A stretch of DNA of 64,000 bases. Source: a virus. Its lineage: Duplodnaviria > Caudoviricetes. Positions 7,920 through 12,863 of the stretch are shown here, piece after piece (position 1 is the stretch's first letter; every line of letters begins with the position of its first letter). The notes beneath the pieces were generated by a model. That model worked only from the letters and a program-made list of their open reading frames with translations, was not told the origin of the DNA and ran no database searches. The translations under genes and the position numbers were made by a program. Where the stretch lies: the IMG/VR virus record IMGVR_UViG_3300030055_000003. One strand, 5' to 3'.

Positions 7920-9225
7920 TTGTGAACATTATATGAACACAATTCCAATTTATAAGTCCATAAGTTATAACTCTTTAACAAGTCATACTAACTCTTATTG
8001 GATGTAAATGTACACCCTCTATTTCATCTACTTTAAAAGCTTCTGAAAATACCTTTTTAATTATATTATAAGCTCCATTAACATCTGAATTAATTAGTTT
8101 GTTTGTATTAGATTTAAATAAACCTCTTACTACACGTCTGCTTTTATTATATGTATCTTTACCTATTACTTCATTATCTAAAAAACTACAACCACTCGTA
8201 TAACTTTCGTTATTAGTTATTACTTTAATTCCTATATTAGAACACTTATATGTAATCATTTTTATTAATTTATCATATGGAATTGATATAAAATTCTGAT
8301 TAGCTGATTTGAATAAACCACTTTCCTGTTTCCAAGTTTTATTCAAACCAATTACTATGATCGTAATATTTAATCCTTCCGCATAAGTAACTATAGATTT
8401 ACTAGCATTATGTAAATAATAATTTATTTTATTATCTCTATCTTGTTGTAATTTATCTAACTTATTGCTCCAGTCCTTTTTATGTCGTTTCTTTAAATCC
8501 GACTGTAATTTAGCTTTCTTCTTATTGTAATATTGATTTATAGATTTGATAACTTTACCATTTATAATGATAGGTTGTACACCTACATTATTAACGCATG
8601 TAGCTAGGTTATCTACTCCTAAATCAATCCCTAATATTCTGTTATTGAATTCTTTAGGCTCTTGAACTTCAATCTCATAAACTATTTCTAATATGTAAGT
8701 TGAACCTTTTGGAATAATTCTAGTTTGTAATAGTTTATTTTTAACATTGGTTTTAAATAAGTTATTCAGTCCTTTTAGTGGTATAAAAGCAAAGTATAAA
8801 TATCCATCATATAAATGGGTTTGCATATTAGTCATTATAAAAATATGTCTACCATTTTTCTTTTTATATCTAGGTAATTTTGGTTTTCCAAGATATTTGT
8901 TTGGATGTTTCCAATAATCTTTTACACTTACTAAGAATGACTTCCAATCTTTACAAAGCAATCTCAATGTCATTTGTGCTGAATTTGAACCTATATCTTT
9001 GAAAGCCTCAGTCTTATTAAGTTCCTTTGACAACTCCACATATTGTAATATTGGACTACCTCTTACAAATAATTGTCTTTGAGTATAATTCGCTAGATTG
9101 TAAATGTTCTTAGCTTTAAAACAATACTCATCAAACAATTTCCATGCTTTGTGGTTTTTATCTATTATATGTCTTTCGACTCTTTGAGTTTTAATGTTAT
9201 CACCTCCTTTCAATCTTGTGTCATT
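7920..9225 (-). mobile_element. Lone-tnpB (IS1341-like) element; ends not resolved
   Basis: tnpB without tnpA; about 55 nt of 3' non-coding sequence ending near TTCAC is the candidate right end / omegaRNA region. Confidence 0.45.
7975..9213 (-). CDS. tnpB: IS200/IS605-family RNA-guided endonuclease TnpB
   Basis: RuvC-I LGIDLGVDNLA, IVIGLNKTWKQE, NESYTS, RuvC-III INSDVNGAYNI. Confidence 0.9.
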   Translation of the reverse strand: MKGGDNIKTQRVERHIIDKNHKAWKLFDEYCFKAKNIYNLANYTQRQLFVRGSPILQYVELSKELNKTEAFKDIGSNSAQMTLRLLCKDWKSFLVSVKDYWKHPNKYLGKPKLPRYKKKNGRHIFIMTNMQTHLYDGYLYFAFIPLKGLNNLFKTNVKNKLLQTRIIPKGSTYILEIVYEIEVQEPKEFNNRILGIDLGVDNLATCVNNVGVQPIIINGKVIKSINQYYNKKKAKLQSDLKKRHKKDWSNKLDKLQQDRDNKINYYLHNASKSIVTYAEGLNITIIVIGLNKTWKQESGLFKSANQNFISIPYDKLIKMITYKCSNIGIKVITNNESYTSGCSFLDNEVIGKDTYNKSRRVVRGLFKSNTNKLINSDVNGAYNIIKKVFSEAFKVDEIEGVHLHPIRVSMTC

Positions 9226-9234
9226 TTTCTTTAA

Positions 9235-9546
9235 TTACTCTACTTTTACTTCAACCCAATCTTCGGCTAATGTATCAGCTTGACTAGCATTCCAAGGAAT
9301 AACTGTATTTCCTGCTGTCTTTAATAATAAGAAATTTTCAAGTTTATATGTAGTTTTACCTACTCCTACTTCAACAATTCCTTGTAATTCAGAAACATCA
9401 TATAACTCTTCTGTAAAATTCTCATCAGCTTTCATTTTTAATGTTGAGAAATAGAAACTAAATACATGCATTCCTTTTCCATTCCAACCTTCTCTAGCTA
9501 TTGGTTTACCTTGTTTAGTTAATTCTACTGCTTTTCCAAAATTCAT
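9235..9546 (-). CDS. tad2: DUF2829 protein, Tad2-like anti-Thoeris/CBASS signal sponge
   Basis: MNFGKAVE...AREGWNGKGM...PWNASQADTLAEDW, the DUF2829 signature. Confidence 0.75.
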   Translation of the reverse strand: MNFGKAVELTKQGKPIAREGWNGKGMHVFSFYFSTLKMKADENFTEELYDVSELQGIVEVGVGKTTYKLENFLLLKTAGNTVIPWNASQADTLAEDWVEVKVE

Positions 9547-9598
9547 AATTTATTTCTCCTTTTCTTCTATTAATTTATTTAAGCATTCTTAATTTGTT

Positions 9599-9745
9599 AA
9601 TATGCTTTAAAGAATAGCTGAATTTACCGTTTCAGCACATTCTCCGATTTAAGCAATTGGTACTAACTTAAAAATCTTGGGTATCAACCTTTGAGAGTTC
9701 TTCTTTCCCTATTGAGTAGTCATTAGCTACTCTTTAAAACATATT
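9599..9745 (-). ncRNA. Candidate structured RNA / leader 1
   Basis: 21-bp closing stem (9599-9619 with 9725-9745); both mismatches are G-U pairs on the minus strand; internal hairpins; downstream of a sigma-A promoter. Confidence 0.5.
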
Positions 9746-9823
9746 ATCCTGTTTATATTAATTTATTTCACTTAATCTTTTATGTATGTTGTGGTAAAGG
9801 TGTTATTCTCTACCACAACTGTT

Positions 9824-9852
9824 ATTTTACTCTCTTATTTATTACTTGTCAA
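9824..9852 (-). promoter_or_regulatory. Sigma-A promoter
   Basis: TTGACA-17-TAAAAT. Confidence 0.7.
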
Positions 9853-9870
9853 CTACTTCTATTAATTTAT

Positions 9871-10263
9871 TTAATTGTCTAATTCATCTATCATCTTTTG
9901 AATTTCTTCTGCTGACTTACCTTTTAAATCCTCATTCTTTTTTAAGTCTAAAGCTTCTAATAATTTTTGCTTTTGTTCTTTTTTAGCTTTAGCATCTTCT
10001 CTTGATTTGGATTCAGCTTGTTTTATTTTAACTATATGTTTTACAATTTCAATTTTCATATCTAATTCTTCATCTTTTTGTGTTTTAGTATCTAATAAGC
10101 TTTCTTCCTCCACTTGTTTTAGTTGTGAATTCAATCCTTTAAAAATTGTATCTAAATCTTTAACTGATAATGACCATAACTCTTCTACTGGTTGTTGTCC
10201 TCTAAAATCAAACCTAAATTTATTCCTACTAGCTACCTCAAAAACATTCTTTTCTGTGTTCAT
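9871..10263 (-). CDS. Conserved large-phage hypothetical protein, coiled-coil C-terminus
   Basis: FEVASRNKFRF..RG...VEELW pattern; partner of the 683-aa gene. Confidence 0.6.
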   Translation of the reverse strand: MNTEKNVFEVASRNKFRFDFRGQQPVEELWSLSVKDLDTIFKGLNSQLKQVEEESLLDTKTQKDEELDMKIEIVKHIVKIKQAESKSREDAKAKKEQKQKLLEALDLKKNEDLKGKSAEEIQKMIDELDN

Positions 10264-10298
10264 AATTAATCATTCTCCTTCTTATTTATTAATTTATT

Positions 10299-12350
10299 TT
10301 AAAATTTAATTTTTAGTATACGTTCTGTTTGTCCTATTGCTTTAACTACCAATTCATTTCTTTTAGTAGAACTAAATCCTAATCCTGATAGTTGGTCATC
10401 AACTTCTTTTACTGCCATCTTACTACCCAATGCTTCAAATACTCTTTTTTGTTTCATTAAGTCTTCTTTTAAGAACTCGTTATAGAATCCATTTGGCTTC
10501 TCTGAATTAACACAATCTTTCAACATAAAGAAGTAATGTCTATGACCAATTCCTTGTTGTTCATCCCAGTAATTAGGTGAATACATAACAACTCCTGTTG
10601 GTATAAATTGATTTGTTTTTAAATTCCATACTTCTTTTGAAGAAACACTTGATGGTAATAACTCTTTAATAGTAAAACCTGTTTCTCTATTAAAATTGAC
10701 TTCTGCAACCATTACATTTTCTTTATTTTTTAATTCTCTATTATAATCAAAAGAGTATATTTGTCCATCAAATTCTATTTCTGCTTTAAATCCTGTTCTT
10801 CCTCCTCTATTAGCATAGTTATGAACAAAGAATTTATATGTCCCTTCTTTCATCTTATTTTTATCAGTCCATGTTATATTTTCAACTGCTGGAATTCCAT
10901 GTTTTGGACTTTGAATATCTATATCTAATTCTCCAGTAGTATTCCTATTACAACTATTACTAAAATAAATTTCATTTCCATTTGGTTCATAACAATGAGC
11001 ATCTAAATCATTTCCATCATATTCTTCATCATTCCATTGAATAGAAAATCTTAATATACCATCTACATTACCACCTGCTGATTTAACTCTATCTTTCATA
11101 GAACTGTCTGTTATATTACCTGAATAAGCCCAACTAAAAGGATTGTTCCATTTAAACATTGTCTTAGCATCTTTATTCTCTGGTGCTATCAATGAAACCA
11201 TATTGCTAGAATGTTTATTCTCAAGATAAACTTCAAGTTCCTTTGTTGTAGGTAATACATTCTTTACAAAATCTTCTATTGCAATTTCTTCAACCTTTGA
11301 GAATTTCTTAGGATTAATAGGAATTGAACTTGACATTTCATCAAATATATTTGTATTTTGTATTCTCTTAGCTGAGTCCTTGTTTGAGAATAATATATTA
11401 TTTACAGAAATATCATCTAAAGTTCCATGTCTTCTTGGTAAAGAATCTAAGTAGCCTAAATCTTCTATTGTTTTCTTAGCATCTTCTAACATTTTTTTAG
11501 TAAAAATAGCCTTTGGACGTTTGTAGTTTTCAGGAGCAATTATCGCTTCATATTTTCTTACTGCCGTATCTAAATCCATTCCTTCACTTATATTTATAAG
11601 TAATGTTCCTATTGAATGGTTTTTAATTCTTCCAATTGAACCACCAACTTTTACTGATTGTTCCCAAGCATAAGTTTCTTTCTCTTCTTGTGTTTGTAAT
11701 TCATCATAAGCTTTCTTGTATTTAAGGAATTCATTTAAAACGCCTTTCCATTCTTCACCTTTGTATAATGTATTAGATGATATTAATTCTAATACTGTTA
11801 AAAGTGATTCTTCTGAAATTTCATCTAATGACCTTTTAAATACATTTCTTGTATCTCTATAAGTTCCTTTTAAATCACCTTCTGATCTACTACTTCTATC
11901 AACAAATTTATCTGGTAATTCTAAGTAGAAATGTTCATATTTATTTATTGAACCGTCTTCTAATAATTCTCTATTACTATCAGTACCAATATTCTTAAAT
12001 TTGCTAATATAAATATCTGTAATGGCTTTTGATTTAACATATTCAGATAATGCATTTGCCACTGGTTGGAAGGTTGTACTATTTGCATCAAAATCCCATA
12101 TTGTAGTTAGTTCATTATTTTTAATAATAACTGCATTTCCAATACTCTTAATGAATTGTCTACAACAACTACAATCATATTCTCTTCTTTGTCTGTAAAG
12201 TTCATTTGTACCTTCTGGAAAACTGTCTAAGTAAATATTCCATAATTCATCTTTATCTACGTTCACCTCAAATAAGCAATCTGCATCCTTTGTGATTTGT
12301 TTAAAGTTTTCTTGTAACACCTTTTTAAAATTTTTAAATTCCATTTTCAT
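10299..12350 (-). CDS. Conserved large-phage protein with C-terminal YfaP/DUF2135-like domain
   Basis: N-terminal YDCSCCRQF; C-terminal LRFSIQWN...DLDAHC.EP.G..IYF...GELDID...VENITW. Confidence 0.5.
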
Positions 12351-12409
12351 TCACTCCTTTATTTTATATGTATATTTTATTTTCCCTTTAATTTATTGAG
12401 CATTTATTT

Positions 12410-12511
12410 AATATGCTTTGCTGAGTAGGTTAACTGTTACATTAACACTACTTTTGAAAGGAGTTTTCTATGAAACTTTTGAGTAGTTTATTCTACTCAG
12501 CAAAACATATT
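12410..12511 (-). ncRNA. Candidate structured RNA / leader 2
   Basis: 19-bp closing stem (12410-12428 with 12493-12511), one G-U; same AATATGTTTT...AAAGCATATT ends as element 1. Confidence 0.5.
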
Positions 12512-12538
12512 CTATTAATTTATTCTTACCACTCTTTA

Positions 12539-12567
12539 ACTATATCACATACAATTTCATTTGTAAA
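12539..12567 (-). promoter_or_regulatory. Sigma-A promoter
   Basis: TTTACA-17-TATAGT with TG extension. Confidence 0.6.
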
Positions 12568-12755
12568 GTGTTTATTTCTATTAATTTGTTAAGTCTTGCT
12601 AAAACATACTTTTTATTGGCTTTTTCGACTTCTACATCCTAGTGTTTAAGCCATTCTTAAAATCTGTTAATTTGATAATTCTTAGTATTTTTATTAATTT
12701 ATTAACAATTATATTTTATGTAAGTGGTAAGTTTGTTATTCCTTACCACTTCTTC

Positions 12756-12785
12756 ATCTTATCATATTTACTAATTACTTGTCAA
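12756..12785 (-). promoter_or_regulatory. Sigma-A promoter
   Basis: TTGACA-18-TAAGAT with TGn extension. Confidence 0.6.
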
Positions 12786-12863
12786 TATAATTTTATTAAT
12801 TTATTGATAATTAAATGTTATACAGGCTACATATATTAAACATAGCCCCCATTTTATAATATA

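What the first reader, a model, noticed from the sequence alone, without database searches (positions are those of the whole stretch)
9599..9745. Structured RNA candidate 1 with alternative pairings
On the minus strand, AAUAUGUUUUAAAGAGUAGCU pairs with AGCUAUUCUUUAAAGCAUAUU over 21 bp, and both deviations are G-U, which favours an RNA role. GAGUAG can instead pair locally with CUACUC, and the 3' arm can form GCUGAA/UUCAGC. An internal CCAAGAUUUUUAAGU/GCUUAAAUCGG stem is also present. This suits a bistable leader or a processed sRNA.
Basis: partly seen in the sequence, partly recalled or inferred. Interest (0 to 1): 0.65.

Follow-up and report, generated by a model that had tools for sequence, protein, structure and literature searches.

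The report
Structured leader RNA in phage cassette
The reported element is a real folded non-coding RNA module, one of two diverged copies in an uncultured peat phage and a member of a small undescribed family placed behind early promoters in front of swappable accessory genes (here a Tad2-like anti-defence gene). Its constant feature is a helix of about 20 bp that most likely acts as an RNA-processing or stability signal, though nothing has been tested experimentally.

Summary
On the minus strand, 9745-9599 folds into a multibranch structure closed by a 21-22 bp helix whose only deviations are two G-U pairs. No ORF overlaps it and no Rfam family matches it. The helix alone is only marginally beyond chance: shuffled genomes reach 17-21 bp.

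The decisive evidence is comparative. A 102-nt paralogue lies at 12511-12410. Five further copies occur in related peat-phage contigs, in three sequence types plus a 55-nt mini form. They share the outer 10 bp of the helix. Five pairs in the closing helix and two in a conserved inner hairpin show compensatory changes, with no broken pairs in the full-size copies. Single-sided changes all give G-U on the gene-sense strand.

Every copy follows a sigma-70-like early promoter cassette and precedes a different small gene. One close relative has the same cassette without the element.

The helix-free state is 10-19 kcal/mol less stable, so thermodynamic bistability is not supported. A different toggle is conserved: the 3' strand AAGCAU can re-pair with a downstream AUGCU(U).

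Best reading, at moderate confidence, is a host RNase III-type processing and stability module in an early leader. Another agent of this scan reported the paralogue (same genome) with a similar reading.

The parts
9599..9745 (-). Element E1, the finding: a 147-nt structured RNA module closed by helix P1.
   Evidence: Fold. Longest long-range stem of the genome. Homologous to E2 and to five copies in other contigs. Matched by covariance models R1 and R2.
9725..9745 (-). 5' arm of closing helix P1. The outer 10 nt, AAUAUGUUUU, are conserved across the family.
   Evidence: Positions 11-16 covary between sequence types.
9599..9619 (-). 3' arm of closing helix P1. The outer 10 nt, AAAGCAUAUU, are identical in all copies.
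9617..9636 (-). Helix P3 (GCUGAA-loop-UUCAGC), abutting the 3' arm of P1.
   Evidence: flags it only as weakly terminator-like. The homologous hairpin is kept with 2 compensatory pairs and one G-U in the other copies. It is identical in L318.
9581..9607 (-). Conserved alternative 3' hairpin. AAGCAU (9607-9602, part of the P1 3' arm) can pair with AUGCUU (9586-9581).
   Evidence: The pairing potential is kept in all 7 copies with loops of 5-15 nt. It forms in silico once the outer 10 bp of P1 are opened, in the four 102-nt copies tested; for E1 a different alternative fold was predicted.
9824..9852 (-). Sigma-70-like early promoter P1b (TTGACA-17-TAAAAT).
   Evidence: 11 of 12 consensus matches. 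The hexamers are kept while the spacer varies in L318 and L321.
9788..9819 (-). Hairpin at the predicted transcription start (GUGGUAGAGAAUAACACCUUUACCAC), part of the promoter cassette.
   Evidence: (I6). Paralogous copy at 12724-12749. Conserved in 6 other contigs.
9756..9768 (-). Gene-junction motif AAAUAAAUUAAUA, upstream copy. It forms a direct repeat with 9568-9580.
   Evidence: (D1, D7).
9567..9580 (-). Gene-junction motif, downstream copy, followed by the RBS AAGGAG and the Tad2-like start codon.
   Evidence: Relative to L321, the stretch between the two motif copies is an exact indel.
9235..9546 (-). Downstream gene: Tad2-like (DUF2829) protein of 103 aa.
   Evidence: Pfam PF11195, E = 2.5e-21.
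12410..12511 (-). Paralogue E2: a 102-nt three-way junction with a 19-bp closing helix.
   Evidence: (z = -7.61).
12539..12567 (-). Promoter P2 (TTTACA-N14-TGA-TATAGT, extended -10), about 25 nt upstream of E2.
   Evidence: Read. Conserved promoter features in G002, L292 and G001.
12724..12785 (-). Paralogous promoter P1a plus start-site hairpin of the E2 locus.

Best explanation
E1 is a transcribed, cis-located structured RNA module.

What it is:
- It is a diverged second copy, a distinct sequence type, of a family found once per genome in a small clade of AT-rich peat phages.
- Host RNA polymerase starts at a sigma-70-like early promoter cassette, transcribes a 5'-terminal hairpin, then E1, then the Tad2-like gene.
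- The constant part of the family is a closing helix of about 19-21 bp with a fixed outer 10 bp, plus a downstream AUGCU(U).
- The interior is type-specific: 13-109 nt between the 19-nt arms.

Most likely mechanism (inferred, not shown):
- The long perfect helix is a substrate for the host double-strand-specific RNase III.
- Cleavage separates the promoter-proximal leader, and the excised core, from the downstream message.
- The freed 3' strand AAGCAU then re-pairs with AUGCUU to give the new mRNA a 5'-terminal hairpin that protects it from 5'-end-dependent decay.
- The module, bracketed by the phage's gene-junction motif, also travels as a unit when accessory genes are shuffled.
For: Shown:
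- A family of 7 copies in 5 sequence forms, with 5 compensatory pairs in P1, 2 in P3, and 100% of the P1 cells and 99% of all tested cells paired in the full-size copies.
- Five single-sided changes all give G-U on the sense strand and none gives A-C. This points to a sense-strand RNA.
- Every copy lies downstream of a conserved sigma-70-like promoter and upstream of an RBS, with no ORF inside it.
- Helix length stays at 19-21 positions while the interior ranges from 13 to 105 nt. The mini form is a plain long hairpin with a 2x2 internal loop.
- The AAGCAU/AUGCU(U) pairing is kept in all copies. It appears in silico when the outer helix is opened, in the four 102-nt copies tested; for E1 a different alternative fold was predicted.
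- The cassette's own transcript also starts with a hairpin.
- The downstream genes differ in every locus, and one relative has the same cassette without the element.

Background:
- B. subtilis RNase III cleaves stable stem-loops in mRNAs and in phage SP82 early RNA (PMC4838370 and its refs 19, 20).
Against: - There is no transcription or cleavage data. No RNA run holds the locus.
- The host is unknown, so its RNase set is inferred.
- None of the three phage records searched (G000, G001, G002; 34-88% complete by CheckV) encodes an RNase III, so a host enzyme must be assumed.
- The three G-type copies are 98% identical over all 102 nt, loops included, while their flanks are 57-84% identical. That is more constraint than a mere cleavage helix needs, unless it reflects recent exchange.
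- The outer 10 bp are sequence-conserved, which RNase III does not obviously require.
- With 3-5 independent lineages the covariation statistics are weak.
Confidence: 0.4

Rival explanations
1. Excised, type-specific non-coding RNA with a function of its own. The closing helix only serves to release a stable core of about 100-150 nt, as rRNA processing stems do. The core then binds a protein or pairs with targets, possibly in anti-defence or early regulation.
For: - The G-type copies are 98% identical over the whole 102 nt, including loops, while flanks are 57-84% identical.
- E occupies a 'gene slot' between two gene-junction motifs.
- The element comes in discrete sequence types, and sister phages G000 and G002 carry different types.
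- C-rich loop motifs (UCCC, CUCC, CCCC) occur in a genome that is poor in C.
Against: - The interior differs completely between types and is nearly absent in the mini copy.
- No conserved loop sequence runs across the types.
- There is no terminator of its own, and no partner protein was identified. No TROVE or RT domain was found.
- The high identity could equally reflect recent exchange.
Confidence: 0.22
2. Kinetic switch or attenuator-type leader. A 5'-arm:CUACUC hairpin plus the AAGCAU:AUGCUU hairpin (state B) competes co-transcriptionally with the long helix (state A) to set expression of the downstream gene.
For: - The four-segment 1-2-3-4 topology is present in E1, L318, E2 and even in the mini copy.
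- The local hairpin forms in silico before the 3' arm is made, in E1 and E2 but not in the three G-type copies.
- The 3:4 pairing is conserved in all copies.
Against: - State A wins by 10-19 kcal/mol, with p of 0.93 or more.
- The 1:2 pairing is weakened in the G type.
- Neither state hides the RBS or forms a conserved U-tract terminator. The terminator-like P3 plus UAUUCUUU is specific to the E1 type and weak.
- No conserved ligand-pocket-like core is present.
Confidence: 0.12
3. Promoter-proximal antitermination site of the nut or put kind. The RNA acts in cis on the transcribing polymerase, alone or with a phage protein, so that early transcription reads through into the accessory and replication genes.
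For: - There are one or two copies per genome, each 25-80 nt downstream of an early promoter and upstream of a long co-oriented gene block that includes the replication module.
- The discrete sequence types resemble the specificity types of nut sites. This is a comparison from general knowledge and was not tested.
Against: - No terminators to be overridden were identified.
- There is no similarity to put. Rfam gave no match at all, though whether it holds a put model was not checked.
- A 19-22 bp helix is unlike boxB or put stems.
- No candidate partner protein was found.
Confidence: 0.08
4. DNA-level element: a single-strand hairpin used as an initiation or recombination site near the replication module, or a small mobile inverted-repeat element.
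For: - It lies 2-5 kb upstream of the AAA_24, DnaB, primase and DHH genes.
- It shows presence/absence polymorphism flanked by 13-bp direct repeats.
- OMEGA-type transposons, TnpB here and IscB in G003, sit next to the cassette.
Against: - The arms do not abut the direct repeats. They are 10 and 18 nt away.
- There are only 1-2 copies per genome, always in the same orientation and context.
- The inner hairpins covary.
- All wobble changes are G-U on the transcribed sense strand.
- It is placed exactly between a promoter and an RBS.
Confidence: 0.08

Closest known systems
RNase III processing hairpins of phage early and polycistronic mRNAs (T7 R sites; Bacillus phage SP82 Bs-RNase III sites, PMC4838370 refs 19 and 20), and the long-range stems that flank 16S/23S rRNA
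   Same: - Helix of about 20 bp in a leader or intercistronic position of a phage early transcript.
- The helix is formed by sequences flanking a structured insert, as in rRNA precursors.
- The mini copy is a long hairpin with a small internal loop.
   Different: - Cleavage is untested.
- The outer 10 bp are sequence-conserved.
- There are type-specific three-way-junction interiors.
- There is a conserved downstream re-pairing partner.
- No sequence similarity to any known site.
PeSL (promoter-early stem-loop) cassettes of T4-like phages (PMC2839356, PMC4122927)
   Same: - A sigma-70-like early promoter plus stem-loop forms a small cassette at the edge of hypervariable accessory-gene slots.
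- Neighbouring genes are swapped between close relatives.
- There are presence/absence variants.
   Different: - The PeSL stem-loop is a terminator. Here the short hairpin sits at the transcript start and has no U tract.
- Only 2 cassettes occur per 141 kb rather than many.
- The long-helix element E has no PeSL counterpart.
- The phage lineage and probable host phylum differ.
HK022 put and lambda nut sites
   Same: Cis-acting RNA elements just downstream of early promoters, in one or two diverged copies per genome with covarying stems.
   Different: - Size and shape differ.
- There is no sequence or Rfam similarity.
- There is no evidence of terminators or of an effect on polymerase.
hok-type mRNAs with 5'-3' closure and refolding after processing
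   Same: A long-range 5'-3' helix closes the RNA, and a conserved alternative pairing could form after the helix is removed.
   Different: - No conserved toxin ORF lies inside E.
- No antisense partner was found.
- E is a leader of unrelated genes.

Membership tests
Any Rfam 15 family (riboswitches, ribozymes, sRNAs, HEARO/omega RNAs, Y RNA, 6S, group I introns) | A covariance-model match at or near the gathering score. | tested here: not met
   There were 0 gathering-level matches in the window. Nothing overlapped E1, E2, the G-type or the L318 copy at E up to 10, 5 and 1 respectively. The only hits were an unrelated miRNA-like chance match and a HEARO RNA elsewhere in L318.
RNase III processing site | A double-stranded helix of about two turns (roughly 20 bp) on the transcript. 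| tested here: met
   Helices of 19-22 bp occur in all full-size copies. The mini copy has 19 pairs plus a 2x2 internal loop. The helix probability is 0.93 or more.
RNase III processing site | RNase III-dependent cleavage in vivo or in vitro. | not testable with these tools
No phage-encoded RNase III was found.
PeSL-type mobile regulatory cassette | A strong sigma-70-like promoter joined to a stem-loop. | tested here: met
   TTGACA-17-TAAAAT plus the GUGGUA..UACCAC hairpin, conserved in 8 loci (the two of the window and 6 contigs) with variable spacers.
PeSL-type mobile regulatory cassette | The stem-loop is an intrinsic terminator, and many copies flank ORFans in hyperplastic regions. | tested here: not met
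   No U tract follows the hairpin. There are only 2 cassettes in the 141 kb held. Gene swapping next to the cassette is seen.
Riboswitch | A conserved ligand-binding core joined to an expression platform (terminator or RBS sequestration). | tested here: not met
   The interior differs between types and is almost absent in the mini copy. The RBS is free in all folds. No conserved terminator is present.
Thermodynamically bistable RNA switch | Two mutually exclusive folds of comparable stability. | tested here: not met
   The alternative conformer has p about 0.057 in E1. The helix-free state is 10-19 kcal/mol less stable in all copies.
Retron msr-msd, Y RNA | An adjacent or co-resident reverse transcriptase, or a Ro (TROVE) protein. 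| tested here: not met
   No RVT_1 or TROVE match was found in G000, G001 or G002. These records are incomplete.
MITE-like transposable element | Terminal inverted repeats that abut a target-site duplication, with many near-identical copies. | tested here: not met
   The arms lie 10 and 18 nt from the 13-bp direct repeats. There are 1-2 diverged copies per genome.

The most novel reading that the evidence does not exclude
E elements are excised, type-specific non-coding RNAs, or nut-like specificity sites, that head the phage's early accessory and anti-defence slot. They act beyond their own message, for example as a regulator or decoy RNA that works with early anti-defence genes such as the adjacent Tad2. 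The discrete 'alleles' (E1, E2 and G types) would mark different specificities.
Probability: 0.15. Interest if true: 0.7.

Novelty: new variant of a known kind. Interest (0 to 1): 0.45.

Why it matters
Structured RNAs of phages are poorly catalogued. This one is absent from Rfam, from 50,697 cultured-phage records and from 185,579 species-representative genomes.

It sits at the head of the early accessory-gene slot, where anti-defence genes such as Tad2 are exchanged. It could therefore show how large Firmicute-type phages control or stabilise the first messages they make, and how promoter, leader and gene modules are shuffled.

If the helix proves to be an RNase III site with a self-installing 5' hairpin, it would be a compact, portable mRNA-processing and stabilising module. 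If instead the core acts in trans, it would be a new phage ncRNA class with discrete specificity types.

Tried and rejected
- Rfam, at gathering and at permissive E-values, on E1, E2, the G type and L318: nothing on the element.
- Model R1 (E1 + E2) over 80 loci around homologues of the 683-aa gene: only weak AT-rich hairpins, no homologue.
- The pattern with GAGTAG/CTACTC in viral contigs: 0 hits.
- Exact-termini patterns: 100 viral and 118 metagenome hits, almost all chance. Only L103, L133, L292, L306 and L307 were real.
- Two scans of genome contigs: 0 hits.
- BLAST of both intergenic regions against cultured phages: no non-coding match.
- Relatives of the 300-aa neighbour gene: only the same two contigs.
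- RNA evidence: no RNA holder was listed.
- Small ORF in the 5' arm (AUG UUU UAA; MFC; 20 aa in the G type): not conserved and without a consistent SD. Rejected.
- Anti-SD idea: E2 holds ACUCCUUU, complementary to its gene's RBS, but the other types do not. Rejected as a family feature.
- Intrinsic terminator (P3 plus UAUUCUUU): specific to the E1 type and weak. Rejected.
- Hammerhead or other ribozymes: no Rfam signal.
- Retron, Y RNA and phage RNase III: no RT, TROVE or RNase III genes.
- Element X between the two promoters: a conserved sequence but no conserved fold.
- MAFFT misaligned E1 with the 102-nt types. The model-made alignment A8 contained antisense rows. Pair counts were therefore made on A5 and A7 only.
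- A hard-constraint fold of E1 was not enforced by my script.

Full report
**Setting.** The window is the reverse strand of G000:C1:39600-103599, an IMG/VR virus record of 140,944 bp that CheckV rates about 57% complete. It has about 25% G+C, and practically all genes lie on the window's minus strand. The DNA occurs in 21 peat-metagenome runs. Core genes are far from cultured phages. The DnaB-like helicase is 32% identical to a Clostridium phage protein, and a laterally shared 683-aa protein is 67% identical to Bacillus phage proteins. A Firmicute host is therefore probable but only inferred.

**The observation.**
- On the minus strand, 9745-9725 pairs with 9619-9599 over 21 bp, or 22 bp with the flanking U-A. 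The only deviations are U7-G and G16-U.
- The fold has MFE -37.4 kcal/mol and z = -3.86.
- No ORF of at least 20 aa overlaps it, and Rfam has nothing.
- It is the longest long-range stem of the genome. However, 12 dinucleotide shuffles of the genome reach 17-21 bp. The stem alone is suggestive, not proof.

**Context, reading along the minus strand.**
- A 130-aa gene ends at 9871.
- It is followed by the motif AAAUAAAUUAAUAG.
- Next comes a TTGACA-17-TAAAAT promoter at 9852-9824, matching 11 of 12 consensus positions.
- A hairpin lies at the predicted start, 9819-9788.
- The motif occurs again, followed by E1.
- After E1 come AUGCUU, the motif a third time, and the RBS.
- The downstream gene is a Tad2-like (DUF2829) gene at 9546-9235, with E = 2.5e-21.
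- A TnpB gene follows at 9213-7975.
- Further downstream lies the replication module: AAA_24, DnaB, primase and DHH.

**A paralogue.** The 513-nt spacer at 12351-12863 repeats the promoter-hairpin cassette at 74% identity. It also holds a 102-nt element, E2, at 12511-12410 with the same ten terminal bases on each side, a 19-bp closing helix and z = -7.61. E2 is preceded by a second promoter with an extended -10 (TTTACA-N14-TGA-TATAGT).

**Homologues elsewhere.** Pattern scans followed by inspection found the following copies.

| Copy | Source | Form |
|---|---|---|
| G type | G001 (218 kb), G002 (84 kb) and metagenome contig L292 | 102 nt, three near-identical copies |
| E1 type | G003 (L318, 130 kb) | 147 nt |
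| Mini | L319/L320 | 55 nt |

- Whole-record searches with model R2 give one copy per record, except two in G000.
- Nothing was found in 80 loci of phages that share the 683-aa gene, in cultured phages or in species-representative genomes.

**Structure and covariation.**
- The 102-nt copies each fold on their own into the same three-way junction. P1 has 19 bp, P2 is CUACU/AGUAG plus AAAAG/CUUUU, and P3 has 5-6 bp.
- Across types, P1 keeps 100% pairing with double changes at 5 of 16 testable pairs. Position 12 shows AU, UA and CG.
- Shifting the partner by 1-3 columns drops pairing to 42-55%.
- On the 102-nt set, 6 pairs have double changes (4 in P1, 2 in P3). 99% of cells are paired, against 35-48% when slid.
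- Single-sided changes are all wobble on the sense strand. They are U7-G versus C7-G in L318, G16-U in the E1 type, G4-U and others in the mini copy, and G-U in P3 of G001. None is A-C within the helices of full-size copies.
- With only 3-5 independent lineages these numbers are supportive, not conclusive. They do argue for a sense-strand single-stranded nucleic acid, and given promoter and RBS placement, for RNA.

**What is constant and what varies.**
- Constant features: helix length (19-21 positions), its outer 10 bp, and a downstream AUGCU(U) that can pair with AAGCAU of the 3' arm. That loop is 5-15 nt.
- Variable feature: the interior, from 13 nt in the mini copy to 109 nt between the 19-nt arms in the E1 type.
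- Within a type, conservation is extreme. G001, G002 and L292 are 98% identical over 102 nt while their promoter flanks are 61-84% identical and the 40 nt after E are 57-74% identical.
- Conversely, the sister phages G000 and G002 have flanking proteins 88-99% identical but carry different E types, only 62% identical.
- E1 and the L318 copy share identical P1 (bar position 7) and identical P3, with a diverged middle.

**Modularity.**
- The gene after E differs in every locus. They are the Tad2-like gene, a 683-aa protein, and small ORFans in G001, G002/G003 and L292.
- Contig L321 has the 683-aa and 130-aa genes and the same promoter-hairpin cassette, but goes straight from the junction motif to the RBS. 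Relative to it, E1 plus one motif copy (188 bp) is an exact indel between two 13-bp direct repeats.
- The 12-mer AATAAATTAATA occurs 53 times on the sense strand and 7 times on the antisense strand of the 141 kb. It usually lies just after a stop codon and before an RBS or a TTGACA promoter.

**Alternative pairings.**
- In E1's ensemble, P1 pairs have p = 0.94-1.0 for pairs 2-20 (0.54 and 0.84 for the two terminal pairs).
- With flanks, P1 has p of 0.93 or more in all full-size copies, and a state without arm-arm contact costs 10-19 kcal/mol.
- Before the 3' arm is synthesised, the local hairpin does form in E1 and E2; in the three G-type copies the 5' arm pairs elsewhere in the interior. If the outer 10 bp are held open, the four 102-nt copies form AAGCAU/AUGCU(U), whereas E1 is predicted to take a different alternative fold.
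- Alternative states can therefore matter only kinetically, or after the helix is cut or unwound.

**Interpretation.**
- The identity is well supported: a transcribed, structured leader module belonging to an undescribed family inside a promoter cassette that resembles the PeSL cassettes of T4-like phages (PMC2839356, PMC4122927).
- The mechanism is inferred. I favour a host RNase III processing site whose 3' product refolds into a 5'-terminal hairpin. This accounts for the constant helix length, the dispensable interior, the conserved re-pairing partner and the phage's use of a 5' hairpin at the cassette's own start. It has precedents in Bacillus phage SP82 and in B. subtilis mRNAs (PMC4838370).
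- The near-perfect within-type conservation is the main observation this does not explain. It keeps open a trans-acting excised RNA or a nut/put-like specificity site.
- DNA-level readings are disfavoured by the wobble asymmetry, the copy number and the geometry of the repeats.

**Relation to earlier notes.** Another agent of this scan examined E2 (e1-5411187) and reached a similar reading. I arrived at the family, the covariation and the cassette independently before reading it, and I do not count it as evidence.

Noticed in passing
whole genome; e.g. window 9859-9872, 9756-9768, 9567-9580, 12511-12523: The 12-mer AATAAATTAATA occurs 53 times on the gene-sense strand and 7 times on the other strand of the 141-kb record, against about 1 expected by my own composition-based estimate, not a tool result. 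It sits just after stop codons and before an RBS or a TTGACA promoter. It could be a phage-specific junction signal (processing site, UP-like element or recombination motif).
   Followed up: partly
window 12596-12660 (minus); L133, L103, L292, L319: A conserved block of about 65 nt, 'X' (AAGAAUGGCUUAAACACUAGG ... AAAAAGUAUGUUUUA), lies between the two promoters of the E2-type cassette. It is 86-91% identical across phages but has no conserved fold (alifold -4.2). Its 3' end mimics the 5' arm of E.
   Followed up: partly
window 7975-9213 (minus); L318:715-2220: OMEGA-type nuclease elements sit next to the cassette in two phages. Here a TnpB (OrfB_IS605 + TNB) lies right after the Tad2-like gene. 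In G003 an IscB (RRXRR + HNH) with its HEARO RNA (Rfam 90 bits) lies immediately upstream of the promoter.
   Followed up: partly
window 9871-12350 (minus): The 683-aa (phrog_1735) and 130-aa genes between E2 and E1 are absent from the syntenic slot of G001 and G002. They are shared at 63-86% identity with many phages of about 150 kb, and at 67% with Bacillus phages of the TsarBomba/BCP78 kind. They look like a laterally acquired insert bracketed by two cassette copies.
   Followed up: partly
window 9788-9819 and 12724-12749 (minus): The cassette transcripts are predicted to begin with a hairpin (GUGGUA..loop GAAUAACA..UACCAC) followed by ACAUA(C)AUAAAA. The P2 transcript starts with the same GUGGUAAGAAUAA but lacks the complementary half.
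   Followed up: no
L292:995-1876: In metagenome contig L292 the second gene after the element is a radical-SAM protein, and the first is a 112-aa ORFan. The slot after E holds unrelated cargo in every phage.
   Followed up: no
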